Virus record (IMG/VR): IMGVR_UViG_2974643820_000001
DNA from: a virus
Length of the DNA: 64,000 bases
Strand: one strand, 5' to 3'
Shown here piece by piece: positions 19,650 through 61,093 of the stretch; within the stretch, counting starts at the first letter, position 1, and each line of letters begins with the position of its first letter. The notes under the pieces are model-generated. The model saw only the letters and a list, made by a program, of their open reading frames with translations. It did no database searches and was not told the DNA's origin. A program made the position numbers and the translations under genes.

Positions 19650-19677
19650 GTTGGGTTCCTCAGTGGGTTAGCCATAT

Positions 19678-19688
19678 GGGGTATTTAG
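19678..19688 (-). promoter_or_regulatory. late promoter CTAAATACCCC
   Basis: Exact recurring motif. Confidence 0.75.
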
Positions 19689-20148
19689 GCTTCCCGCTTG
19701 GCGAGGCCTGGTTTGTACAGGACGATTTCACGCACCATAGGCACCCCAGAGCGGTCCAGCACGATGGTGGAGTCATAGCCCGAGCAATTAGCGCGGCGGC
19801 GTTCTCATGGATCTTACCAGCTTCGATACCGAGGGCGCGCATTGCATCTTCCCATGCGGACACGTTGTTGGAGTCCAGTTCGAGCGGCTTGTTGACGTTG
19901 ACGTTGAACACCAGCACATGAGGTTCACCAGTCTTGCGATAGCGAACGGCGTTTTCAGCATAGCGCTGTGCCTCTTCTTCACTACCAGTCAGATAGAACC
20001 CAGGTCCCATCGTACCACAATCAGTCTGACCGAAGCGCTCAAAGTCGAAGACATCGAATTCTACGTTGGAGCCGTGAAAGAGGCGCATGTTACCGAACTT
20101 GGGTTCAGCCTCAGACGCCTCGCGGAAATATTCAAGAAAGGTTTTCAT
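19685..20148 (-). CDS. capsid-targeted H-Y-E ADP-ribosyltransferase-like protein, ~154 aa; 1-nt deletion at 19779-19781
   Basis: MKTFLEYFRE N-terminus; FHGS, GPGFYLT, AQRYA; one extra G restores ARGYDSTIVLDRSGVPMVREIVLYKP. Confidence 0.7.
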
Positions 20149-23056: not shown

Positions 23057-23303
23057 ATGCCACATCGATGGGATGGGTGGAAAGACTACACACTTCGCAC
23101 TGGTACTGCCTTATGGGAGAGCGCGTCAGGAGTCGAACCTGAAGTCGTCGGCGTAGAGAAAGCTATTTGCATTTCACTATCCTCGCCTCGATTTTCTTAA
23201 CTTCCTAAACACCCGATTACGAGAGAGTCGACATGCACATCTTCTAACTCTTCAGGAAGTCACGCCCAAAATATGATTTGCGATGATGGACCCATTCCAT
23301 CTG

Positions 23304-23369
23304 GGGCTGGGTGAGTGGGAGTTGAACCCACAACGCTTGGCTCGCTTTCCCTACCATTCAGGCCACCCA
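23304..23369 (-). pseudogene. degenerate tRNA-like element
   Basis: Acceptor TGGGTGG/TCACCCA and T-arm GTGGG-TTCAACT-CCCAC; no anticodon arm; ends GCCC, not NCCA. Confidence 0.4.
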
Positions 23370-23467
23370 ATTCCAGGAGGTAGAACACCTTTGCCGTCAG
23401 TGTCCATGCGCCAGTCTTCCGCCCTAGCCTCCACTCGCGTCTGGGATTTCCGCGATGATCGCAAATT

Positions 23468-23556
23468 TGGCGGAAGGTGAAGGATTCGAACCTTCGGGGC
23501 TTATAAGCCCCACTCGATTAGCAATCGAGTCCCTTAAACCTCTCGGGCAACCTTCC
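23468..23556 (-). tRNA. tRNA-Ser(GCT)
   Basis: Full class II cloverleaf; CTCGA-TTGCTAA-TCGAG anticodon arm; GGTTCGAATCC; encoded CCA. Confidence 0.95.
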
Positions 23557-23623
23557 AGTATTAGCCCCTCCCTGTCACCATCCAGGAATCCTGTAGGAAT
23601 CGAACCTACACGAGGGGGTTATT

Positions 23624-23707
23624 TGGAGCGGGAGAGCAGGATTCGAACCTGTCCAGTGATCGTCGCCGATGATCAGTCAGCTACTGGCCAACCCCTATGG
23701 CTCCCGC
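23624..23707 (-). ncRNA. tRNA-like RNA with Gly-type acceptor and no canonical anticodon arm
   Basis: GCGGGAG/CTCCCGC-T-CCA, T-loop TTCGAAT, non-canonical interior. Confidence 0.55.
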
Positions 23708-23815
23708 GAAATTAGGACGGGCTTCACACCCGATTGTGCATTTCATCTGCCCGTTTGAAGGGCGACCAGTGCCTTCTGGTCAGATACACAGCGTGGCTGC
23801 AACGCTTACTGTGTT

Positions 23816-23899
23816 TGGTGTGAGTGGATGGATTCGAACCACCGCGCTGTTACGGGGAGATTTACAGTCTCCTGCATTCGACCGCTCTGCCACACTCAC
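23816..23899 (-). tRNA. tRNA-Tyr(GTA)
   Basis: GGAGA-CTGTAAA-TCTCC anticodon arm; long variable arm; encoded CCA. Confidence 0.95.
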
Positions 23900-23902
23900 A
23901 TT

Positions 23903-23976
23903 TGGTCTACCGCTACGTGCTGGGCCACGCTCGAGGACATCGGCCATCCTTCCTCAGCTAATCCACGCAGCGGCAG
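23903..23976 (-). ncRNA. CCA-terminated long-stem RNA
   Basis: 13-bp stem CTGCCGCTGCGTG/CACGTAGCGGTAG followed by A-CCA; sits directly upstream of tRNA-Tyr. Confidence 0.5.
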
Positions 23977-24045
23977 ATTTGTTTCAGAGTGTCCGGTGTA
24001 GCAACCCGTGAGGTGCGCACTACTGTAGCCTCTACACTCTGAATT

Positions 24046-24150
24046 TGGTGGGCGTTACTATCGTCGTCTTCGGATTCCGTTCGGCTATTGGACAGAGGCT
24101 TGGAGCTTGTCGGTTGCGTACTTCGTGCCTATCCACTTTCGTTCACACCC
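24046..24150 (-). ncRNA. CCA-terminated ~105-nt RNA
   Basis: GGGTGT/ACGCCC-A-CCA terminal stem; no T-loop; directly downstream of tRNA-Asn. Confidence 0.5.
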
Positions 24151-24156
24151 ATTGTC

Positions 24157-24232
24157 TGGCGACGATGGCAGGACTTGAACCTGCGACATACGGTTTAACA
24201 GACCGCCGTTCTACCGACTGAACTACATCGTC
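24157..24232 (-). tRNA. tRNA-Asn(GTT)
   Basis: 76-nt canonical cloverleaf; GCGGT-CTGTTAA-ACCGT; encoded CCA. Confidence 0.95.
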
Positions 24233-24233
24233 T

Positions 24234-24431
24234 TTATCCGTGCTTGTTCGCTTCAATCGCCCTTAATTGGGCATCAGCGTCAGCTTTGGTGTCATGTGTC
24301 CCAAGAACCTTCGTCTTGGTGTGGTCAAGGACAACCCACTTGTCGCCTCGCCTTTCAACAAACTCGACAATCTCTTTGTTGTCAGTAGCGAGGCCATCCC
24401 ACTCAGCAATAAAATCACCGAACGTTTTCAT
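24234..24431 (-). CDS. putative internal head protein, 65 aa (MKTFGDFIAE|WDG...)
   Basis: T4 capsid-targeting-like N-terminus; own TAAATA late cassette. Confidence 0.75.
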   Translation of the reverse strand: MKTFGDFIAEWDGLATDNKEIVEFVERRGDKWVVLDHTKTKVLGTHDTKADADAQLRAIEANKHG

Positions 24432-24470
24432 CTTACTCACCAATTGTTTATTGAACAACTGGTTTATTTA
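24421..24470 (-). repeat. 50-bp late-promoter/RBS/start cassette, copy 1
   Basis: 46/50 identical to 24685-24734. Confidence 0.9.
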
Positions 24471-24695
24471 AACCCCGTACACGATGCCACGGCCTTTCGG
24501 TGTCTTACCATTACCGAACCATTTCCCTGTCATCTGAGCAGAGCCTGGTGTACTGGCAACAACAAATTCACTACCACCGTGACCTTCTTTGGTGAATTCG
24601 GCCTTTGGATTCTTCTTCAGGCAGACCTGTTTCCATTCATCAAAGTCATTGTATTCCTTGTTGGCTTCGGTCAGGAATTCTTTAAACGTTTTCAT
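24468..24695 (-). CDS. putative internal head protein, 75 aa (MKTFKEFLTE|ANK...)
   Basis: N-terminus matches T4 IPI MKTFKEF; own CTAAATA late cassette. Confidence 0.78.
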   Translation of the reverse strand: MKTFKEFLTEANKEYNDFDEWKQVCLKKNPKAEFTKEGHGGSEFVVASTPGSAQMTGKWFGNGKTPKGRGIVYGV

Positions 24696-24734
24696 GCTAC
24701 TCTCCAATTGTTTGTTGAACAACTGGTTTATTTA
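24685..24734 (-). repeat. 50-bp late-promoter/RBS/start cassette, copy 2
   Basis: 46/50 identical to 24421-24470. Confidence 0.9.
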
Positions 24735-25010
24735 GGTGCTCCCGAGGCGGCATTTCAATTCCGCGATCCCATCACGCCTGCCGTAGACCGGAGCTTGCTG
24801 GCAGTCCAACAATATTTGGTGTTCCCTGAGGGAGTCGAACCCCCAACTTCCGTTATTCTCAACAACCTTCCCCAGTCCGTGCAGTCTGGTACTCAGATGT
24901 CTACCTTCACGTTCGCCTGTATCCAAGCCTATCTCTTCATTTAACCTTACAGCCTCAATCTGCACGGGTGAAAGAGCTTCAGAGATACTGCCATACAACG
25001 GGAACAAAAC

Positions 25011-25113
25011 TGGCGGGGTCTGAGGCTTTTCACCTCACCTGCTGGGTTTGGCCGCCCAGCCGTTCTCTATGAGGATTCGCTGTCCGGACAGCTATCCCTT
25101 AAACTATCGCCCC
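25011..25113 (-). ncRNA. degenerate tRNA-like RNA ending GCCA
   Basis: GGGG/CCCC-G-CCA ends; TAGTTTAAGG D-loop-like start; TGAGG-TGAAAAG-CCTCA T-arm-like hairpin. Confidence 0.4.
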
Positions 25114-25119
25114 TCAATT

Positions 25120-25199
25120 TGGTTGGAGGAGAAGGATTCGAACCTTCAACGGCTGCCGCCATCCCCTCAGGGAATGTCTACCCCTTCCATCATCCTCCA
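25120..25199 (-). ncRNA. Leu-type class II tRNA-like RNA with collapsed anticodon arm
   Basis: Perfect acceptor TGGAGGA/TCCTCCA-A-CCA, T-arm, Leu-like D-arm and variable arm; anticodon arm is only TCCC-TGAG-GGGA. Confidence 0.65.
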
Positions 25200-25204
25200 A
25201 ATTA

Positions 25205-25950
25205 TTGTGTGACCAACCAAGGACTGTCAACCCTTTATCCCGTTTGTGCATGATCAGTTCATGCAGGCCTCTTTGTGCTGCCTCACGGCAACGCGCTTCT
25301 GCTGGTCATTGGCTTGCACCGTAGCCTCACAACAGGCGTTTATTTTTCCAGGGCTTTCCACTTGCAAGTCTTGACCATACAGGGATACGGGCTTGCAAGA
25401 TCGGGTTGGTAACAACTCTGATGGCTCTGAACGTTCTTTTCACTAGTCATCCACAACTGATATTCGGATGTCCAGAGCCATCAGAGTTGCAGCCAGGCTA
25501 CAACCCGCACTTCAGTGTCTTCGTCACACTTCGGCACTTGTCCTCTACGCTCGGACCAAACGAGGCTGGCCGACATAAACATAACACCACTCATCACTAG
25601 AGCGAGGATGTGGTTGATAGCCACGATGTATGCCTCTGTCGCAGAGTGATCACGCTTGTCAGGATGATCACTGTTTTGCAGTACCTGCCGCAAAGTAGAG
25701 TTCTCTGAACTTCAATGACCCCTCATCTTGTACTATCGCCGTCGGGAACGTTCACCATGTGAATCAAACCTTTAGGTTAAGTTCAATGTCCAGAGGACTC
25801 TACTTTGCGTTGTGGGGGCAAACCCCCACACGGCTACTTCTTTAACAGGGATTGCTAGCCCTGGGGATTCCACTGTTTAAGGCTTTATCCCATAACGCCT
25901 GAGGCGTGTTCTCAAACTAATAGAGTTTGCTTAATTGCAAACTGATGTGG
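25205..25950 (-). ncRNA. structured non-coding segment
   Basis: 17-bp IR 25413-25429/25473-25489; 11-bp IR 25690-25700/25798-25808; several hairpins; no credible RBS-led ORF. Confidence 0.5.
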
Positions 25951-25954
25951 CTAT

Positions 25955-26477
25955 GGGACACATCTGTGACGTATCTCTTATCCGGATTCGAACCGGATTT
26001 ATCCTGGCAGAGGAATCTAACCCCTTTACCTCGTGGCAACGAGGACGGTCAACAGACCTCAAGATACGTCACAGATGTGTTGCCCGTCACTTGCCAGAGA
26101 TCGGGGCGGATGGTAAGACTTCGCTCACATCTGGGAGGACACTGCTGTCGTTCGCGACCGACAACCACTCAGATATATTTCAATCATGTTGTGGTGCAAT
26201 GCCCTCTCAGATGTCGGCGGGAGCTTATTAATCACACCCTCCCGCCTATTGTTAGTGCGCCGAATTTTGTTATGAGGAGTCGGAAGACCTCACTGACTTA
26301 TAGGCTATTACGCCGCCATCAGAACTACATCATCGTTTGCATTTATTTTTGTGGTCTGTTTCTAAAAACCCGCAAAGTCACGCACAACGAAAACGAAAAC
26401 CTGTTTGAGCACAAGACGCCATGTCCTGGGTTCACATCGAAGTGTTTGTCTAGTGCCCAAACAGCTTTTCGTTCAGT
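25955..26477 (-). ncRNA. tmRNA-like structured RNA (3' end uncertain)
   Basis: Own promoter at 26484-26509; 21-bp helix; resume motif and tag frame; stop-codon hairpin; H-type pseudoknot; 19-bp helix enclosing a TTCGAAT T-arm. Confidence 0.55.
26305..26340 (-). other. tmRNA-type proteolysis tag reading frame ANDDVVLMAA**
   Basis: AAAAATAAAT|GCA AAC GAT GAT GTA GTT CTG ATG GCG GCG TAA TAG; ten codons, as in E. coli ANDENYALAA. Confidence 0.7.
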
Positions 26478-26510
26478 GGGTTAACTATACTTTGTAACCC
26501 GTTATTGACA
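26478..26510 (-). promoter_or_regulatory. promoter (TT)GTCAAT-N14-TATAGT with -10 in hairpin loop
   Basis: Same architecture as the TTCAAT-N14 class; GGGTTAC/GTTAACCC encloses the -10. Confidence 0.65.
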
Positions 26511-26519
26511 AAACTTTAA

Positions 26520-27140
26520 ATCTGCCGGAACTTACGCATCCGGCCTCGCCTGTTGGTGCTCCTTCGAATCCGGGAAGATCAGCAGGAACTATGAATCAAG
26601 TTAATTCGACCAACAGGAACCTTTGTGTTGCCCTTTGACGCAACATTATGAACCCTCTGTGAAGACTCATAATGTTGTCGGCGTGATGGAACCTGGCAGA
26701 TCCGACCTCCCCTATATGTTGGTGTCGACTTGCCAACGGGGTGCTCTCAAGCATCTGAGCTAATCACGCTACAACAGGGAGTTTCGTTCTCCGACGGTCA
26801 GTGCGTCCACTAACACCATGCAAGGTGGATATTCCGCCTCTATTCACACAAGCCCCTGAGACTAGGGGTTAACTGGTTTTGGGCTGCAAACCCGACTCCC
26901 ACTGTGCTGTTTCCCTCGTGTTTAATACTTTACCGCAGACCAGCTAATTTGAAAAGTCCTCTCCTCTTTGAGCTACACTGCCCACAGCAGTGCGGACGAA
27001 CCTTCACTCAAAACCGGATGCGCCGAAGTGGGCGACTGAGTACCGGACTGATCGGGTAGACCCAGGAGAGTAAAGGTAATCCCGATCAGGAGGATAAGGA
27101 GCAACATCATGTAAAACATAGTGTTCCCTCCCTTCCATGC
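26520..27140 (-). ncRNA. ~620-nt structured non-coding RNA candidate
   Basis: IRs at 26549-57/26609-17, 26641-51/26667-77, 27048-56/27081-89; terminator-like GCCGGA/TCCGGC hairpin at 26524-26544; no ORF of 60 aa or more. Confidence 0.55.
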
Positions 27141-50354: not shown

Positions 50355-51050
50355 ATGAGTGCTATGTCAGAACGCCTATTGTCCACCCTCGGTGCTATCC
50401 AAGCGCGGGATGAGGTCGCTCAGGAAGTGATGGAGAAGACCGCGCCTGTGGCTGGGAAAGATTATGATCCAGATACTGGAGTGTGGTTGGGTGAAAAGCC
50501 TGCAGGGTATGAGCCTGTGGTGTTCCCTCCTTCTCTGGACCCAGAAGAGCTGAAGTCCAAGGATTCCAAAGTCCCAGACTTTGACGACACGGACGCCACC
50601 ACGGATTACAAACGCATCCGCGACACGACTTACGCCATGCAGGAAGCCACGATGTTCATGATGGGACAGGCGGCCAAACTCGCGACGACCACAGAAGCGC
50701 CTCGGGCGTTTACAGTCTTCAAGGAGTTGGGTGAACTCATGCGCGGCCTGAACAAAGACTTGATGGAGAACCAGAAGACCATCAAGGCAGTTACAGGCGA
50801 CAAAGAGCCTCCAACAGATGACACGACTGTCGAGGTCACAACATCTCCAGATGGTGCAACCAAGGTTACAGTCGGGAAACAGGCGCGTTCTTCTCGAGAT
50901 CTACTCAAGACAATCGAGGATGCCAAGAAGCGTGCTGACGAGCGTACTCAGTCCAAGGTTAAGCCGAACGAAGAAGTGATAGACGTTCAGGCTGAACAAC
51001 CTGTGGAACCGAAGGATGAAGGTGAAGACAATGGCGTATCAGAAGCGTGA
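50355..51050 (+). CDS. gp16: terminase small subunit gp16
   Basis: EAPRAFTVFKEL motif; directly before TerL. Confidence 0.85.
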   Translation: MSAMSERLLSTLGAIQARDEVAQEVMEKTAPVAGKDYDPDTGVWLGEKPAGYEPVVFPPSLDPEELKSKDSKVPDFDDTDATTDYKRIRDTTYAMQEATMFMMGQAAKLATTTEAPRAFTVFKELGELMRGLNKDLMENQKTIKAVTGDKEPPTDDTTVEVTTSPDGATKVTVGKQARSSRDLLKTIEDAKKRADERTQSKVKPNEEVIDVQAEQPVEPKDEGEDNGVSEA

Positions 51051-53241
51051 TATAGAATATGCCCCGCTCAAGACGGGGTTCAAGATAGAAGACGTCAAAT
51101 TGCGTATGGACCAAACGTTCATGCGCAAGCCGTCTGTGCGCGCCCCTCGTGTCCAGTTGATGTTGACAGATGAGCAGGAAGATGAATTCGTCGAATGCGC
51201 GATGGATGCCCATTACTTCGCTGCCAACTACTACAAGATCACGACTATCGATAAAGGCTTCATCCTATTCGATATGCACGACTATCAGAAGCAGTTGTTC
51301 CATGACTTCCAGGATCACCGCTTCAACGCCGTTGTCCAGGCACGTCAGTCAGGTAAATGTGTGAAGGGTGACAGCATCGTCGAGGTCTACGACACAGTCA
51401 GCCAAGAAGAGTTTAAAGTCACCATCGAGGAGCTTCACAGCCGCTTCGAGGGACCGAACCACGCCGAGCCACTGAACGCCTTTGGCAAACACGATAAGTT
51501 CGTAGACAGCCGCTTCGGCAAGCGTTATTTCGTTCGCTGTGATATAGGCTGGGTGCCTGTCATCGCCGCGCACAAGACCAAGCAGTATCAGGAATATGTT
51601 GTCGTCACTTCCAGCGGCCGTCGTATCAACGTGGCCGATGATCACATGTTCTTCAATCAGAATATGAAGGAAGTGTTTGCCAAAGATCTGGTTGCTGGTT
51701 CACAGCTGATGACCGAAGAAGGTCTAGAAGAAGTCGTTGAGGTATGGCAGACTGGTGAGATGCACCACATGTATGACCTACAGGTGAAATCCAGCGACCA
51801 GCGCTACTACACCAACGGCTTCCTCAGTCATAACACGACTGTTGTGGCTGCGTTCCTTCTCTGGTATGCGATGTTCCACTCTGACAAAGAGATCGCGGTA
51901 CTGGCGAACAAAGAGAAGCAGGCGATTGAAATCCTTGACCGTATTCGTAAGGCGTATCAGGATTTGCCATTCTTCATCCAGCAGGGCTGTGAGAAGTTCG
52001 GCTCCACGCTCATCGAATTCGAGAACGGCTCGAAGATATACGCCTATGCAACATCTTCTGACTCCATCCGTGGTCGATCTGTATCGCTCCTGTATGTGGA
52101 CGAAGTGGCGTTCATCGAAAACGACTTTGAATTCTGGGAGTCAACATTCCCTGCGATTGCATCTGCAGAGACTTCACGTTGTATCCTGACCAGTACACCG
52201 AAAGGCCAGCGCGGGTTGTTCTACGACATCGTCACCAAGGCGAACCCAGAACATCCTCAGTACAACGACTTCAATCTCACAGAGGTTCCATGGTATCGTG
52301 TGCCAACATACACCAAGGATCCAAACTGGGAATCCAAGCAGAGGGCGAAGCTGGGCGATGCACGTTTCGATCAGGAATTTGGCATCAAGTTCCGTGGGTC
52401 GGTCGGTTCACTTATCCCGGCCAAGTGCCTGGACAAGATGACCTCGAAGCTGTATCAGGAGCCGAACGAGTTCACCAAGATCTATCACGACTACGATCCG
52501 AAGCGAATCTATATGGGTATCGCAGATACAGGCAAGGGCGTCGAGGGGGATTATTCTGTGCTGACCATTATCGACATCACAGACTATCCTCACAAGATCG
52601 CAGCCAAGTATCGAAACAACACGATACCTCCAATGATGTATGCGTACACAATCGCCGATATGGGCGAGAAGTATGGGACGTGTCCAATGTTGGTAGAAAC
52701 CAACAACGACGTGGGTGGACAGGTAATCACAATTCTATATCAGGAAATTGAATATCCAGAGATCATCTTCACCACAACAGATGCGAAGGGTACTGGTAAG
52801 CGAATCGGCGGTAGGCGGCCTGAACCTGGTATCAACACCAACAAGAAGGTGCGCACAAACGGCTGTGCCAACCTGAAAGCCCTGATCGAAAGGGAGATGC
52901 TGGTTGTTGACGATCAAGACACGATAGATGAACTCAGTACATTCGTATGGACTGGGACAAGGTATGAAGCCGATGATGGTTGTCATGATGACTGTGTAAT
53001 GCCTCTTGTGCTGTATGCATGGGCGGTGAAACAAGAATGGTTTAGTGACCTCACCAATTCCAGTATCTCAGTCGACATGAGAGGCCGCTTGTCTGCGATG
53101 GAAGAATCGCAGATGATGCCTTTCGGTGGTGTGTTGTCGGCTCCTGATCCGTTCTCTGTGGAGAGTGTGCCAGGATTTGGTGGCGTGCAGGTTTATGACG
53201 AACGTTCTGGCATGTCCATGGAAGAATGGCTGAGACGGTGA
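51031..53241 (+). CDS. gp17: terminase large subunit gp17 with intein, 736 aa
   Basis: ARQSGK|T Walker A; LLYVDEVAF Walker B; DDCVM nuclease motif. Confidence 0.95.
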   Translation: MAYQKRDIEYAPLKTGFKIEDVKLRMDQTFMRKPSVRAPRVQLMLTDEQEDEFVECAMDAHYFAANYYKITTIDKGFILFDMHDYQKQLFHDFQDHRFNAVVQARQSGKCVKGDSIVEVYDTVSQEEFKVTIEELHSRFEGPNHAEPLNAFGKHDKFVDSRFGKRYFVRCDIGWVPVIAAHKTKQYQEYVVVTSSGRRINVADDHMFFNQNMKEVFAKDLVAGSQLMTEEGLEEVVEVWQTGEMHHMYDLQVKSSDQRYYTNGFLSHNTTVVAAFLLWYAMFHSDKEIAVLANKEKQAIEILDRIRKAYQDLPFFIQQGCEKFGSTLIEFENGSKIYAYATSSDSIRGRSVSLLYVDEVAFIENDFEFWESTFPAIASAETSRCILTSTPKGQRGLFYDIVTKANPEHPQYNDFNLTEVPWYRVPTYTKDPNWESKQRAKLGDARFDQEFGIKFRGSVGSLIPAKCLDKMTSKLYQEPNEFTKIYHDYDPKRIYMGIADTGKGVEGDYSVLTIIDITDYPHKIAAKYRNNTIPPMMYAYTIADMGEKYGTCPMLVETNNDVGGQVITILYQEIEYPEIIFTTTDAKGTGKRIGGRRPEPGINTNKKVRTNGCANLKALIEREMLVVDDQDTIDELSTFVWTGTRYEADDGCHDDCVMPLVLYAWAVKQEWFSDLTNSSISVDMRGRLSAMEESQMMPFGGVLSAPDPFSVESVPGFGGVQVYDERSGMSMEEWLRR
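51358..51834 (+). mobile_element. mini-intein, 159 aa, in the TerL Walker A
   Basis: Begins CVKGDS, block B ADDHMF, ends YTNGFLSHN, followed by T; no LAGLIDADG motif. Confidence 0.92.
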
Positions 53242-58089: not shown

Positions 58090-58758
58090 ATGATGAAACT
58101 GTTGCGTGAGATCACGGCGATAGGGAAAGACCTCCAAATCGGTGAAAGCACCACCTCCACTGGGGGTAAGGCTATGTTCATCGAAGGTCCATTCGTGATG
58201 TGTAATCAGGTGAACCGTAATGGACGCAACTACGATCTCCAGAAAGTGGGCATGCCAGCTGTCGAAGCATATGACAAAGAGTATGTTCAAGATCGTCGCG
58301 CAATCGGTGAACTCAAACATCCCGACTACCCTTTCCCAGATATTGCTGAAGCTGCGCTGAAGACCGAGAGCCTCCGTTGGGAGGGCACGAACGCAATCGG
58401 TCGAGCGCGTGTGCTAAATACACCAAAAGGCCAGATCATTCGTGCTCTGGCTGAAGCAGACTTCAACTTGGCCGTGTCTACACGTGGCCTTGGTGAGACC
58501 AAGTCAGTAAACGGTTATGATGACGTTCAACCTGGCTTTATGCTCACTGCTGTTGATGCAGTCGACCGTCCTTCTGGACAAGTTTGTTATGTAAAGGCTG
58601 TGAGCGAATCTGTTGAATGGCAGCTTGATGAATCTTCAGGGATTTGGGTTCCTAAGGACATCAAAGGGCAAGTGGTCGATTCATTGGTGAAAACCAATAT
58701 TCAGTTCGAAGACGACTTCCTGCGCCGCCTCGATATCGCATTGAGACATCTGGGCTGA
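58090..58758 (+). CDS. gp21: prohead protease gp21
   Basis: NRNGRNY; AIGELKHP; VSTRGLG; DAVDRPS motifs. Confidence 0.95.
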   Translation: MMKLLREITAIGKDLQIGESTTSTGGKAMFIEGPFVMCNQVNRNGRNYDLQKVGMPAVEAYDKEYVQDRRAIGELKHPDYPFPDIAEAALKTESLRWEGTNAIGRARVLNTPKGQIIRALAEADFNLAVSTRGLGETKSVNGYDDVQPGFMLTAVDAVDRPSGQVCYVKAVSESVEWQLDESSGIWVPKDIKGQVVDSLVKTNIQFEDDFLRRLDIALRHLG

Positions 58759-58803: not shown

Positions 58804-59679
58804 ATGAAACCTGAATTGCAAAAACTGTTTGAGGGCGTTAACGGCCTCAGCACCGACTTCCTGGATAAAGTGTCCGGTCTGCTGGAATCTAAAGTAGAAG
58901 CCGCTCGCCTGACCGCTATTCAAGAAACCGAAAACGCTGCCAACGTTGAGCGCCTGCGTCTGGTTGAAGCTCATCAGTCTGAGATTGCTCAGCTGAAAGA
59001 GTCTCACTTGATGGAGATCGCAACCAAAGTTGACAGCTTCCTGAACGCTGTTGTAGAAGAGTGGGCTAACACCAACGCTCCTGCAATCGATGCTCAGATC
59101 AAGCGTGAAGCAGCTGAAAACCTGCTGACTGGCCTGACTGGCGTTCTGAAAGAAGCTGGTATCAACTTTGCGACTGACGAAAACGGCCAGATCGCTGCGC
59201 TGACTGCCCGCCTGACTGAAGCAGAACAACGTGCTGCGGCTGCTGAAAGCGAAAACCGTCAAATCAAAGAAGCCGCGAATGCAACTCTGCGCGACTCTGT
59301 GATCACCCGTATCTGTGAAGGTATGGTCGACACCAAGAAAGCAACGGTTGTCAATCTGCTGGAAGCGGTGCAGTTCACCACCGAAAGCGAATTCGCTTCC
59401 CGCGTACACACCTTCCGCAACCTGGTAGAAGGTAAGTCCGCGAAGAAAGAAGGCGATGACGATGACTTCCAGGACAAAGTCGGCGGCAAAGACGGTGACG
59501 ACGACAATAAAGACAAAGGCGACAAAGACAAAGTCGACGAAGGCAAAAAGCCTAAGAAAGAAGGCGATGACGACAAAGACGATGATAAAGACGATGAAGA
59601 TGAAACAGACAAAGAGCTGAAAGAATCTATCAAGCGTCAGTTGGAAGACTACAATCGTCGCTTCGGCATCAACGGCTAA
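58804..59679 (+). CDS. gp22: prohead scaffold gp22, 291 aa
   Basis: Helical, acidic linker; CTAAATA promoter at 58770-58776; T4 gene order. Confidence 0.9.
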   Translation: MKPELQKLFEGVNGLSTDFLDKVSGLLESKVEAARLTAIQETENAANVERLRLVEAHQSEIAQLKESHLMEIATKVDSFLNAVVEEWANTNAPAIDAQIKREAAENLLTGLTGVLKEAGINFATDENGQIAALTARLTEAEQRAAAAESENRQIKEAANATLRDSVITRICEGMVDTKKATVVNLLEAVQFTTESEFASRVHTFRNLVEGKSAKKEGDDDDFQDKVGGKDGDDDNKDKGDKDKVDEGKKPKKEGDDDKDDDKDDEDETDKELKESIKRQLEDYNRRFGING

Positions 59680-59770
59680 TTTTAGCAGCCACAGCCCTCG
59701 AAAGGGGGCTTGATTTTGAACTACTAAGTAATTTCAACTTAACTGAATATCAATGTAAGGAATGACCATC

Positions 59771-61093
59771 ATGGCTAAGAAACTTGTTACCGAACAAATG
59801 CGCGAGCAGTGGCTGCCAGTTCTTCAGAAAGAATCTGAAAGTATCCAGCCGCTTTCTGCCGAAAACGTTGCCGTCCGCCTGCTGCAAAACCAGGCTGAGT
59901 GGAACGCCAAAAACCTGGGCGAATCCGACGCTCCTGGTTCTGTAAACGCCTCTGTGGGCAAATGGCAGCCAGTCCTGATCGACATGGCTAAACGTCTGGC
60001 TCCGATCAACATCGCGATGGACTTCTTCGGTGTTCAGCCGCTGTCTGGTCCTGACGGTCAGATCTTTGCTCTGCGTGCTCGCCAGGGTATCGCCGACGGT
60101 TCCAACACCCAACAGTCCCGTAAAGAACTGTTCATGCAGGAAGCTGATTCTGGCTACTCTGGTGACGGTACTGTACAGGCTGGTGACCCATCTGGCTTTA
60201 CTCAGGCCGAGATCGAAGGTTCCGGCGCTGGCGTGACCACCATCGGTAAAGGCATGCCAACCACCGACGCTGAACTGCTGGGTACTACCACCAACCCTTG
60301 GGCGCGTGTTGGTATCACCGTTCAGAAAGCAACCGTGACTGCGAAGTCTCGCGGCCTGTACGCTGACTACAGCCACGAGCTGCGTCAGGACATGATGGCG
60401 ATCCACGGCGAAGACGTTGACAGCATCCTGTCCGACGTGATGGTAACTGAAATTCAGGCCGAGATGAACCGTGAGTTTATCCGCACCATGAACTTCAGCG
60501 CAGTACGCTTCAAAAAATTCGGCGCAAACGGCGTTGTAGACATCTCCACCGACATCTCCGGTCGTTGGGCGCTGGAAAAATGGAAGTACATGACTTTCAT
60601 GCTGGAAGTCGAAGCGAACGGCATCGGTGTTGACACCCGTCGTGGTAAAGGCAACCGTGTTCTGTGTTCTCCGAACGTAGCATCCGCTCTGGCGATGTCC
60701 GGCATGCTGGATTACGCTCCGGCACTGCAGGAAAACACCAAGCTGGCGATCGACCCAACTGGCCAGACCTTCGCTGGTGTTCTGTCTAACGGTATGCGTG
60801 TCTACATCGACCCGTATGCAGTAGCAGAGTACATCACCCTGGCATACAAAGGCGCGACCGCGCTGGATGCTGGTATCTTCTTCGCGCCGTATGTGCCGCT
60901 GGAAATGTACCGCACCCAGGGTGAAACCACCTTCAGCCCACGTATGGCGTTCAAAACTCGTTACGGCATCTGCGCGAACCCATTCGTACAGATCCCAGCG
61001 AACCAGGACCCACAGGTTTACGTGACTGCCGACGGTATCGCTCAGGACAGCAACCCTTACTTCCGTAAAGGTCTGATCAAAGGTCTGTTCTAA
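59771..61093 (+). CDS. gp23: major capsid protein gp23, 440 aa
   Basis: VQPLSGPDGQIFALR; TVTAKSRGLYADYS; FKTRYG motifs. Confidence 0.97.
   Translation: MAKKLVTEQMREQWLPVLQKESESIQPLSAENVAVRLLQNQAEWNAKNLGESDAPGSVNASVGKWQPVLIDMAKRLAPINIAMDFFGVQPLSGPDGQIFALRARQGIADGSNTQQSRKELFMQEADSGYSGDGTVQAGDPSGFTQAEIEGSGAGVTTIGKGMPTTDAELLGTTTNPWARVGITVQKATVTAKSRGLYADYSHELRQDMMAIHGEDVDSILSDVMVTEIQAEMNREFIRTMNFSAVRFKKFGANGVVDISTDISGRWALEKWKYMTFMLEVEANGIGVDTRRGKGNRVLCSPNVASALAMSGMLDYAPALQENTKLAIDPTGQTFAGVLSNGMRVYIDPYAVAEYITLAYKGATALDAGIFFAPYVPLEMYRTQGETTFSPRMAFKTRYGICANPFVQIPANQDPQVYVTADGIAQDSNPYFRKGLIKGLF

What the first reader, a model, noticed from the sequence alone, without database searches (positions are those of the whole stretch)
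24234..24734. Tandem internal-protein cassettes: duplicated late promoter and capsid-targeting start with unrelated cargo, inside the tRNA cluster
Seen: two 50-bp units (46/50 identical) carry TAAATA, a hairpin, the RBS and ATG AAA ACG TT, giving MKTFGDFIAE|W... (65 aa) and MKTFKEFLTE|A... (75 aa) with dissimilar bodies. The stop of one overlaps the promoter of the next. Known: T-even ipI sits by the tRNA cluster, begins MKTFKEF, is hypervariable, and IPI* inhibits the modification-dependent nuclease GmrSD. Inference: an analogous swappable locus of injected proteins protecting this phage's hypermodified DNA. Together with the ART at 19685, this defines a three-member injected arsenal that I do not recall being described for this family.
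Basis: partly seen in the sequence, partly recalled or inferred. Interest (0 to 1): 0.75.

Follow-up and report, generated by a model that had tools for sequence, protein, structure and literature searches.

The report
T4-style head-targeted small proteins, tandem
An Ackermannviridae phage (Enterobacter phage EspM4VN) carries two adjacent small late genes with the same promoter-hairpin-start leader and the ten-residue N-terminal tag that phage T4 uses to load proteins into its head; one gene is a rare cassette whose only relatives sit in the internal-protein slots of T4-like phages, so they are probably packaged and injected, but this is untested.

Summary
On the minus strand, two 50-nt leaders (46/50 identical; TAAATA, 9-10 bp hairpin, RBS, ATGAAAACGTT) precede ORF2 (24695-24468, 75 aa) and ORF1 (24431-24234, 65 aa). 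The bodies are unrelated, and ORF2's stop lies inside ORF1's TAAATA. The window is Enterobacter phage EspM4VN, where both genes are annotated as hypothetical.

ORF2 plus one leader copy is a 264-nt insertion that Ag3 and P46FS4 lack. Its family is tiny (4 to 9 clusters among billions of proteins). Every relative with readable context lies in a T4-like phage ip slot, after gene e or after 57A-57B/Acb1, once behind TATAAATA. All start x-F-x-[ED]-[FY]-[LIM]-x-E followed by A/S.

ORF1 and ORF2 meet the four mapped T4 CTS positions (aromatic 4 and 7, L/I 8, E 10). The window also encodes gp20, gp21, gp22 and gp23 homologues. The third MKTF gene, the ART, has a homologue that MS confirmed in LIMEstone1 virions.

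ORF1's core domain occurs without the leader elsewhere, and its LIMEstone1 homologue is not in the virion list. No cargo function or link to type IV restriction is shown.

Verdict: a new member of a known kind (T4-type internal proteins, plus PeSL-like cassette insertion) in a family where they had not been described. The scan had already noted the same leader on this genome's ART.

The parts
24468..24695 (-). ORF2 (EspM4VN gene_95, BBD52275.1), 75 aa. Residues 1-10 are MKTFKEFLTE, a CTS-like tag with predicted cleavage after E10. The predicted mature protein is 65 aa, 7.1 kDa, pI 9.2.
   Evidence: Homologues lie only in T4-like ip slots.
24234..24431 (-). ORF1 (EspM4VN gene_94, BBD52274.1), 65 aa. 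Residues 1-10 are MKTFGDFIAE (CTS-like), followed by a linker and a beta-beta-beta-alpha core (residues 24-64, DUF2188-like). The stop lies 1 nt before tRNA-Asn.
24685..24734 (-). Leader copy in front of ORF2: TAAATA at 24734-24729, hairpin at 24726-24704, GGAGAG RBS, and the first 11 nt of the ORF. Its upstream flank is the ancestral flank seen in Ag3, P46FS4 and LIMEstone1.
24421..24470 (-). Leader copy in front of ORF1: TAAATA at 24470-24465 (overlapping ORF2's stop), hairpin at 24463-24439, GGTGAG RBS, and the first 11 nt of the ORF.
24471..24684 (-). 214 nt with no counterpart in Ag3 or P46FS4. Together with one leader copy this makes the 264-nt cassette insertion.
   Evidence: (BLASTN borders).
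24157..24232 (-). tRNA-Asn, directly downstream of ORF1. The arrangement small ORF then tRNA is conserved in Ag3, LIMEstone1 (tRNA-Met), KVP40 (tRNA-Ser) and S118-type phages.
25201..25230 (-). Sigma-70-like promoter (TTGACA-18-AATAAT, 11/12) upstream of tRNA-Ser(tga). It could give early read-through transcripts across ORF2 and ORF1.
   Evidence: consensus match only.
19660..20148 (-). Third MKTF gene (gene_89): an ART-PolyVal ADP-ribosyltransferase, MKTFLEYFRE/A, behind CTAAATACCCC plus a hairpin. Its C-terminus is frameshifted relative to relatives.
   Evidence: The LIMEstone1 homologue ORF173 is a confirmed virion protein.
58090..58758 (+). gp21-type prohead protease (Peptidase_S77), the enzyme expected to remove the CTS after L/I-X-E.
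58804..59679 (+). gp22-type scaffolding core protein (T4_CASP), with 16 [LIV]-x-E sites.
59762..61093 (+). gp23-type major capsid protein with L-G-E/S at residue 54. Published virion MS has no peptide from the N-terminal part.

Best explanation
ORF1 and ORF2 are T4-type internal-protein genes of an Ackermannviridae phage. Shown: they are two tandem small genes, each behind the same 50-nt leader. The leader holds the family's late-promoter core TAAATA, a hairpin, an RBS and the first four codons. ORF2 plus one leader copy is an insertion relative to the nearest relatives, and ORF2 belongs to a tiny family otherwise found in the ip slots of T4-like (Straboviridae) phages. Inferred: the ten N-terminal residues (aromatic at 4 and 7, L/I at 8, E at 10) act as a capsid-targeting sequence that docks the proteins on the gp22/gp21-type scaffolding core while the prohead forms. 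The gp21-type protease then cuts after E10. The mature 55-aa and 65-aa proteins stay in the head with the DNA and enter the cell at infection, alongside the MKTF-tagged ADP-ribosyltransferase. Also inferred: the cassette entered by recombination at the conserved leader and CTS-coding sequence, as PeSL cassettes and the T-even ip loci do, with a T4-like phage of the same hosts as the likely source. Speculative: the cargoes counter host defences, and their targets are unknown.
For: 1. Repeat and insertion. The leaders are 46/50 identical. BLASTN against Ag3 places both copies on Ag3's single leader and leaves 24471-24684 unmatched. The ORF2 copy keeps the ancestral upstream flank.
2. CTS rule. 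The first 10 residues of T4 IPIII suffice for packaging, with residues 4 and 7 serving targeting and residues 8 and 10 serving processing; gp21 cuts after L/I-X-E (PMC9026906). ORF1 has F4, F7, I8, E10. ORF2 has F4, F7, L8, E10. T4's own ip N-termini were read from its record.
3. The pattern persists where DNA identity is lost. ORF1 orthologues begin MKTFGEFLTE, MKTFDNFLSE or MKSFSDYLNE.
4. A whole-genome scan for starts of the form MK[TS][FY]x[DEQH][FY] gives 1 hit in Ag3 (ORF1), 2 in LIMEstone1 (the ORF1 and ART homologues), 1 in Sajous1 (ART) and 4 in T4 (ipI, ipII, ipIII, 61.1). The reversed-pattern controls give 0.
5. Context of ORF2's relatives. Metamorpho gp171 lies directly after gene e, next to a second MKTYQEFLAE gene. 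P0008 lies directly after gp57A and Acb1, which is the ipI slot. P0009 lies downstream of Acb1 behind TATAAATA. P0010 sits in a tandem run of four MKTF genes, three beginning MKTFKE[FY][IL]TE and the fourth MKTFSQYLKE. All nine profile hits carry the same kind of N-terminus. There are weak PHROG hits to 'internal head/virion protein'.
6. Machinery. Homologues of portal, S77 protease, T4_CASP scaffold and gp23 are in the window. The capsid protein has LGE/S at residue 54, and EspM4VN virion MS recovered no peptide before residue 65 in the authors' numbering.
7. The ART homologue ORF173 (MKTFLQYLQE/S) is an MS-confirmed LIMEstone1 virion protein.
8. TAAATA behaves as a promoter core. Eleven of 15 sites have an ORF start 25-49 nt downstream, against a 4.5% background. 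LIMEstone1's authors annotate the same hexamer as a late -10 signal, and the EspM4VN paper lists CTAAATAcCcc as a family motif.
Against: There is no direct evidence that ORF1 or ORF2 is in virions. The LIMEstone1 proteome of 39 proteins does not list ORF167, the ORF1 homologue. The Sajous1 proteome does not list the ART homologue gp116. The EspM4VN MS covered only gel bands holding proteins of about 17 kDa or more. ORF1's core domain occurs without any leader in 45-53 aa proteins, inside the KVP40 tRNA cluster, and fused to Acb1, so it need not be a head protein. In ORF1 the residue after the predicted cut is W, and the ART has F-R-E rather than L/I-X-E. LIMEstone1's authors did not mark a late promoter before ORF167. 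If transcription starts 6-7 nt after TAAATA, as it does at T4 late promoters (my knowledge), the hairpin's 5' arm would not be in that mRNA. The whole argument rests on transferring the T4 rule to another phage family.
Confidence: 0.6

Rival explanations
1. Only ORF2 (and the ART) are packaged internal proteins. ORF1 is a cytoplasmic small protein tied to the tRNA array or to anti-CBASS counter-defence, and its N-terminal helix is a structural or translational feature that merely resembles a CTS.
For: ORF1's core is found without the leader in many phages. It sits next to tRNA-Ser in KVP40. It is fused to the C-terminus of Acb1 in RB43 and Slopekvirus. It lies directly after an Acb2/Tad1-type gene in L052. 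Other contexts include Thg1 and YqeY genes. ORF167 is absent from the LIMEstone1 virion list. ORF1 always abuts a tRNA.
Against: The Ackermannviridae forms specifically added the decapeptide that the leaderless forms lack. They keep F/Y at positions 4 and 7, L/I at 8 and E at 10 through sequence change. A genome-wide scan finds that pattern only on ORF1, ORF2 and the ART. A mature protein of about 6 kDa is easily missed by gel-based MS.
Confidence: 0.2
2. The conserved 50-nt unit is chiefly a promoter and RNA-processing element of the tRNA array, and a recombination hot spot. Neither small protein is packaged, and the MKTF start is carried along because it is part of the repeated DNA.
For: The leader is 96-100% identical across genera whose coding DNA is far more diverged. 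It reads into tRNA-Asn or tRNA-Met. In S118-type phages it drives a non-CTS 47-aa gene, phrog_6110. The variable hairpin positions change only between Watson-Crick and G-U pairs. An upstream sigma-70-like promoter would give read-through transcripts in which the hairpin can form.
Against: The DNA repeat covers only the codons for M-K-T-F. Residues 5-10 differ in DNA yet keep the CTS pattern. ORF2's relatives in T4-like phages have the same N-terminus without this leader. This reading explains the leader, not the protein motif, so it complements the main explanation more than it replaces it.
Confidence: 0.15
3. ORF2 is a recent, selectively neutral hitch-hiker with no function in this phage.
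For: ORF2 is present in only this one Ackermannviridae genome out of about 208 with the leader. Its GC content (46-47%) is lower than the window's 50.6% and lies between the window and its T4-like relatives at 38-39%.
Against: The reading frame is intact. The RBS (GGAGAG) is better than ORF1's, the CTS is complete, and the fold is confidently predicted (pLDDT 76.5). Identity to distant relatives is 55-68% with 31 invariant columns.
Confidence: 0.05

Closest known systems
T4 internal proteins IPI, IPII and IPIII and their capsid-targeting sequence (Mullaney and Black 1996, as reviewed in PMC9026906 and PMC3012670)
   Same: A ten-residue N-terminal tag: MKTFKEF is identical to the start of T4 IPI, and L-T-E/A resembles I-A-E/A of IPII and IPIII. 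The key positions 4, 7, 8 and 10 are conserved. The bodies are small, unrelated and in ORF2's case basic. The genes are tandem with duplicated upstream regions, as ipII and ipIII are. The position beside tRNA genes matches ipI. gp21-, gp22- and gp23-type head genes are present.
   Different: The host phage is an Ackermannviridae, not a Straboviridae. The promoter core is the family's (C)TAAATA rather than TATAAATA. Packaging, cleavage and injection are untested. No body is homologous to IPI, IPII or IPIII. The locus is largely invariant across the family.
PeSL mobile regulatory cassettes of T4-type phages (Arbiol et al. 2010, PMC2839356; PMC4122927)
   Same: A conserved unit of about 50 nt holding a promoter and stem-loop flanks a gene that is present in one phage and absent from its close relatives. 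The indel borders fall exactly on the repeat.
   Different: PeSLs combine a strong sigma-70-like early promoter with a terminator stem-loop. Here the promoter element is of the late type, the hairpin lies downstream of it and lacks a U-tract, and the repeat extends into the coding sequence (RBS plus MKTF).
T4 Alt, a packaged and injected ADP-ribosyltransferase
   Same: The neighbouring MKTF-tagged ART is an ADP-ribosyltransferase whose LIMEstone1 homologue is in virions, so this phage has both an Alt-like and IP-like set.
   Different: It has a different ART fold family (ART-PolyVal, PF18760), is only about 150 aa long, and its target is unknown.
DUF2188 (PF09954) small beta-beta-beta-alpha domain, for the ORF1 core only
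   Same: There is a weak Pfam match (E 0.034). The predicted structure matches DUF2188 entries at rmsd 1-2 A over 42-46 residues.
   Different: The match is below Pfam's threshold. The function of DUF2188 is unknown. The N-terminal CTS-like extension is specific to the Ackermannviridae forms.

Membership tests
T4-type CTS-bearing internal proteins | N-terminal decapeptide with the targeting residues (aromatic at 4 and 7) | tested here: met
   ORF1 has F4 and F7, ORF2 has F4 and F7, and the ART has F4 and Y7. The rule comes from PMC9026906. The T4 sequences were read.
T4-type CTS-bearing internal proteins | Processing motif L/I-X-E at residues 8-10 | tested here: met
   ORF1 has I-A-E and ORF2 has L-T-E. 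The ART has F-R-E here but L-Q-E in LIMEstone1. In ORF1 the residue after the cut is W, which is atypical.
T4-type CTS-bearing internal proteins | The phage encodes a gp21-type prohead protease and a gp22-type scaffolding core | tested here: met
   Peptidase_S77 E 1.5e-30, T4_CASP E 2e-42, Gp23 E 6e-124, Portal_T4 E 2e-150.
T4-type CTS-bearing internal proteins | Homology or synteny with genes in the ip slots of T4-like phages | tested here: met
   This holds for ORF2 only. For ORF1 it is not met: its relatives in T4-like phages are leaderless or fused to Acb1.
T4-type CTS-bearing internal proteins | Late transcription | tested here: inconclusive
   TAAATA lies 39 nt before each ATG, and the motif is strongly tied to ORF starts. 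No transcript data were available. An upstream sigma-70-like promoter also exists.
T4-type CTS-bearing internal proteins | The protein is present in the mature head with the tag removed, and is injected | not testable with these tools
   Published MS shows the following. LIMEstone1 lists the ART homologue but not the ORF1 homologue. The EspM4VN MS covered only gel bands holding proteins of about 17 kDa or more. Sajous1 lacks ORF1.
PeSL regulatory cassettes | A repeated promoter plus stem-loop unit bounding an indel between close relatives | tested here: met
PeSL regulatory cassettes | A sigma-70-like early promoter combined with a terminator stem-loop | tested here: not met
   The scan finds no sigma-70 match and no terminator-like site in the units. 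The element is TAAATA followed by a hairpin without a U-run.
IPI*-type inhibitor of GmrSD | Sequence or fold similarity to T4 IPI* | tested here: inconclusive
   BLASTP aligns only residues 1-7. The fold searches listed no IPI* entry, but weak or missing matches do not exclude similarity.
DUF2188 (ORF1 core) | Pfam match above the gathering score | tested here: not met
   14.7 bits against a cut-off of 22. Structural similarity to DUF2188 entries is seen.

The most novel reading that the evidence does not exclude
Ackermannviridae share a working T4-type capsid-targeting system with Straboviridae. CTS-tagged cargo cassettes move between the two families through the conserved tag and leader sequence. 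ORF1 would then be a pre-packaged form of a small domain that other phages fuse to Acb1 or place beside Acb2, that is, an injected counter-measure against cyclic-nucleotide (CBASS-type) immunity rather than against restriction.
Probability: 0.12. Interest if true: 0.7.

Novelty: new member of a known kind. Interest (0 to 1): 0.45.

Why it matters
If the tag works in this family, three things follow. First, Ackermannviridae (ViI, CBA120, LIMEstone and EspM4VN, which are used in biocontrol and diagnostics) inject a small set of proteins ahead of gene expression, and these are candidate anti-defence factors that nobody has examined. Second, the ten-residue tag gives a ready handle for loading foreign proteins into these heads, as was done in T4. 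Third, the ORF2 cassette is a concrete case of exchange of injected-protein genes between two phage families that share hosts and a head-assembly mechanism. The conserved leader also marks one slot where gene content can be compared across more than 200 genomes.

Tried and rejected
1. Fold searches gave no useful match for ORF2: best PDB Foldseek E 0.16, best VIA-align Z 4.4 (YwmB), and Ugi- and Acr-like rows at Z about 3, which is within noise. In BFVD the only strong hit was the protein itself, which identified the phage. The PDB search for ORF1 also gave nothing.
2. The protein atlas gave no lead for ORF2.
4. The metagenome scan for the leader 20-mer returned one true Ag3-like contig and six chance matches in AT-rich DNA. 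The IMG/VR scan returned only single-copy loci.
5. I could not identify the one record that has two leader places (209 places in 208 records).
6. The hairpin shows no compensatory double changes, only one-sided changes between Watson-Crick and G-U pairs, so RNA-level selection is suggested but not shown.
7. I rejected the idea that the motif is chance. Three MKTF starts in 64 kb, none in the reversed controls, and exclusive association with these genes in four other genomes rule it out.
8. I rejected the idea that the locus is hypervariable.
9. Extra context look-ups for leaderless ORF1 relatives gave mixed, non-decisive neighbourhoods.

Full report
IDENTITY OF THE WINDOW. The DNA is closest to Agtrevirus phages Ag3 and P46FS4 at about 97% identity. 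The BFVD hit to ORF2 is 100% identical and named Enterobacter phage EspM4VN. That phage's annotation table matches the window with an offset of 33,440 bases. ORF1 is gene_94 (BBD52274.1), ORF2 is gene_95 (BBD52275.1), and the ART is gene_89. All three are annotated 'hypothetical protein' (PMC7283392).

THE OBSERVATION. All relevant genes are on the minus strand. The two 50-nt units at 24421-24470 and 24685-24734 are 46/50 identical. Their first 20 nt occur only twice in the window, against none in 100 shuffles. Each unit reads TAAATA, then a 9-10 bp hairpin (-10.8 and -9.1 kcal/mol, z about -2.7), then an RBS (GGTGAG or GGAGAG), then ATGAAAACGTT. ORF2 (24695-24468, 75 aa) starts MKTFKEFLTE/A. 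ORF1 (24431-24234, 65 aa) starts MKTFGDFIAE/W. Beyond the N-termini the two proteins do not align. ORF2's stop codon is the TAA of the next TAAATA. The pair lies between tRNA-Asn and tRNA-Ser(tga), and tRNA-Asn begins 1 nt after ORF1's stop.

IS TAAATA A PROMOTER ELEMENT? Of the 15 [CT]TAAATA sites in the window, 11 have the first ATG of an ORF of at least 50 aa lying 25-49 nt downstream. Only 4.5% of all positions have that property. Several of these sites are followed by a hairpin whose 5' arm starts in or just after the hexamer. The LIMEstone1 record annotates the same hexamer as the -10 signal of putative late promoters, including before the ART homologue. The EspM4VN paper lists CTAAATAcCcc as a family motif. 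No transcript data were available to me. A strong sigma-70-like site at 25230-25201 could also give early read-through transcripts across both genes. If late transcripts start 6-7 nt after the hexamer, as they do in T4 (my knowledge), the full hairpin would exist only in read-through RNA. The hairpin's role is therefore open. Across 14 leaders it stays paired in 95% of cells, with only one-sided changes between Watson-Crick and G-U pairs.

ORF2 IS AN INSERTED CASSETTE. BLASTN against Ag3 aligns window 23784-24470 and 24685-24819 onto overlapping Ag3 coordinates that share Ag3's single leader. This leaves 24471-24684 unmatched, and P46FS4 behaves the same way. The leader copy in front of ORF2 keeps the ancestral upstream flank, while the copy in front of ORF1 is preceded by ORF2's 3' end. 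The event therefore added 214 nt of new sequence plus one leader copy. This is the signature of recombination at a repeated regulatory unit, as described for PeSLs in T4-type phages (PMC2839356). The unit here differs from a PeSL in three ways: the promoter is late-type, the hairpin is not a terminator, and the repeat runs into the coding sequence.

WHERE ORF2 COMES FROM. TBLASTN against 50,697 phage records finds one hit. It is gp171 of Klebsiella phage Metamorpho (Straboviridae, Jiaodavirus), 55.7% identical over the full length. That gene lies immediately after the endolysin gene e and before another gene starting MKTYQEFLAE, followed by vs.7. This is the position of ipIII and ipII in T4. 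A search of 5.8 billion proteins finds three further clusters:
- P0008 follows gene 1, gp57A and Acb1 (57B), which is the ipI slot.
- P0009 lies downstream of Acb1 in a T4-like contig, behind a canonical TATAAATA. The same contig holds two other tagged genes, MKSFIEYLTE and MLNFNEFLAE.
- P0010 sits in a tandem run of four MKTF genes with unrelated bodies, three beginning MKTFKE[FY][IL]TE and the fourth MKTFSQYLKE.
A profile search of 1.84 billion representatives adds only a few more members. All begin x-F-x-[ED]-[FY]-[LI]-x-E followed by A, S or Q. One of them hits 'internal virion protein' PHROGs, as ORF2 does weakly. ORF2 is thus a member of the T4-like internal-protein cassette pool that has landed in an Ackermannviridae genome. 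Its GC content (46-47%) lies between that of its T4-like relatives (38-39%) and the window (50.6%).

THE TAG. The T4 record gives ipI as MKTFKEFTST..., and ipII and ipIII as MKTYQEFIAEA. According to the review PMC9026906, the first ten residues of IPIII suffice for packaging. Residues 4 and 7 matter for targeting, residues 8 and 10 for processing, and gp21 cuts after L/I-X-E. ORF1 and ORF2 satisfy all four positions. The ART has F at position 8 here but L in LIMEstone1. ORF1 orthologues from other genera change the decapeptide (MKTFGEFLTE, MKTFDNFLSE, MKSFSDYLNE) while keeping the pattern. Only the first 11 coding nucleotides belong to the DNA repeat. The pattern is therefore maintained at the protein level.

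A DNA pattern for MK[TS][FY]x[DEQH][FY] finds these genes and nothing else. It gives 1 hit in Ag3, 2 in LIMEstone1, 1 in Sajous1 and 3 in this window (the window scan used a shorter MKT[FY] start pattern). In T4 it returns ipI, ipII, ipIII and gp61.1. Reversed controls give zero.

THE MACHINERY. The window encodes a T4-type portal, a small basic core protein, an S77 prohead protease, a T4_CASP scaffold with 16 [LIV]-x-E sites, and a gp23-type capsid protein with L-G-E/S at residue 54. In the published EspM4VN virion MS, 20 capsid-protein peptides cover the chain from residue 65 (authors' numbering) onward, and none comes from the N-terminal part. This is consistent with removal of a propeptide.

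VIRION EVIDENCE. LIMEstone1's MS-confirmed virion proteins include three relevant entries. ORF173 is the ART homologue (MKTFLQYLQE/S). ORF174 is its downstream neighbour. ORF169 is the homologue of the window's needle-knob-like gene. ORF167, the ORF1 homologue, is not listed. Sajous1 lacks ORF1, and its ART homologue gp116 is not in its MS list. The EspM4VN study excised ten gel bands, the lowest holding proteins of about 17-20 kDa, so proteins of 6-7 kDa were never sampled. One of the three MKTF proteins therefore has direct virion support, in a relative. The two proteins of this finding have none.

ORF1'S BODY. ORF1 is conserved at 80-98% in more than 200 Ackermannviridae. Its core sequence, VE-RGDKWVVLDHTKTKVLGTHDTK--A--QLRAIEANK, folds as three strands and a helix (pLDDT 83). 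It resembles DUF2188 entries and the N-terminal 45 residues of two AFDB entries named as prohead or capsid maturation proteases. The Pfam match to DUF2188 is below threshold. The core also occurs in other settings:
- It occurs without any tag in 45-53 aa proteins.
- It lies next to tRNA-Ser in KVP40.
- It forms the C-terminal 48 residues of Acb1 in RB43 and Slopekvirus, at the 57B position.
- It lies directly after an Acb2/Tad1-type gene in a metagenomic phage contig.
Other neighbourhoods are uninformative. The Ackermannviridae form looks like an older domain to which the tag was added. That fits recruitment into the head but does not prove it. The two anti-CBASS associations are a lead, not a finding.

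VARIABILITY OF THE LOCUS. The leader is 96-100% identical in 208 records, with 209 places in all. All 15 IMG/VR loci carry one copy. I saw four states of the slot:
- The leader followed by ORF1, which is the common state.
- The leader with ORF2, then a second leader with ORF1, seen only in this phage.
- The leader followed by a 47-aa phrog_6110 gene without a tag, seen in S118-type Kuttervirus.
- No ORF1 at all, as in Sajous1.
In every state the small ORF ends 1-5 nt before a tRNA. The slot can exchange cargo, but it is far from the hypervariability of T-even ip loci.

CARGO FUNCTION. ORF2's predicted mature form is 65 aa with pI 9.2 and an alpha/beta fold (pLDDT 76.5). It has no significant structural match. 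Only its first seven residues match IPI. Nothing links either protein to type IV restriction or to the phage's DNA modification.

LITERATURE. A 2024 review of Ackermannviridae biology does not contain the words internal, ADP-ribosyl or tRNA in its text. No held paper combines the family's name with capsid targeting. An earlier follow-up in this scan had already read the ART of this genome as carrying a T4-type packaging leader, and my checks agree with that reading.

VERDICT. The most likely reading is T4-type CTS-tagged internal proteins, one of them a cassette acquired from the T4-like pool by recombination at the conserved leader. My confidence is 0.6 for packaging and processing, and lower for any particular function.

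Noticed in passing
window 19660-19790 (-): The ART gene (gene_89) is frameshifted near its 3' end. Frame 3 of the same stretch reads ...GYDSTIVLDRSGVPMVREIVLYKPGLAKREA*, which matches the C-termini of the Sajous1 and LIMEstone1 homologues. The genome came from a PacBio RSII/HGAP assembly, so an indel error is likely.
   Followed up: partly
window 24232-24236; L001 3883-3885; L030 6222-6224; L006 2650-2656: ORF1-family genes end 1-5 nt before a tRNA gene in every phage I looked at (Asn, Met or Ser). The 3' end of the mRNA is therefore probably made by RNase P, and the leader's promoter also reads into the tRNA.
   Followed up: partly
window 23100-26700: The region is a mosaic relative to Ag3 and P46FS4. 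Blocks 23558-23620, 23752-23783, 24820-25010 and 25970-26199 are present or absent in different phages. P46FS4 lacks tRNA-Asn. T-arm-like GGATTCGAACC motifs at about 23127, 23594, 23637, 24813 and 25982 are not called as tRNAs by ARAGORN.
   Followed up: no
window 51439-51526 (-): ARAGORN calls a tRNA-Asp with anticodon ATC inside, and antisense to, the 741-aa ORF at 51016-53241. Rfam does not report it. The published annotation counts it as the fifth tRNA, but it is probably a false positive. Rfam at gathering threshold also does not report tRNA-Ser(tga) at 25120-25199.
   Followed up: no
L005 2024-2647 (RB43); L007 2021-2644 (VAC13): In RB43 and Slopekvirus the Acb1 (57B) protein carries a C-terminal 48-residue domain homologous to ORF1's core. 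Some records annotate it as 'RNA ligase'.
   Followed up: partly
L052 4713-5138: A leaderless 45-aa ORF1-core protein starts at the base after the stop of an Acb2/Tad1-hairpin gene in an 82.7-kb metagenomic phage contig.
   Followed up: no
L029 561-1473: A metagenomic T4-like contig carries four consecutive genes starting MKTFKEYITE, MKTFKEFLTE, MKTFKEFLTE and MKTFSQYLKE, with unrelated bodies. The first belongs to the ORF2 family.
   Followed up: partly
T4 NC_000866 18966-19130 (L044): T4 gene 61.1 (54 aa, hypothetical) also begins MKTFKEF. It is the only T4 match to the tag pattern that is not a known internal protein.
   Followed up: no
L014 3496-3639: S118-type Kuttervirus phages keep the first 34 nt of the leader but follow it with a 47-aa gene (phrog_6110, MMEFIKQL...) that abuts tRNA-Asn. 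The listed records do not annotate it.
   Followed up: partly
window 59762-61093: The published EspM4VN virion MS has no capsid-protein peptide from before residue 65 (authors' numbering), although five tryptic peptides of good size are predicted there. This fits cleavage at L-G-E/S (residue 54 of the 443-aa ORF).
   Followed up: partly
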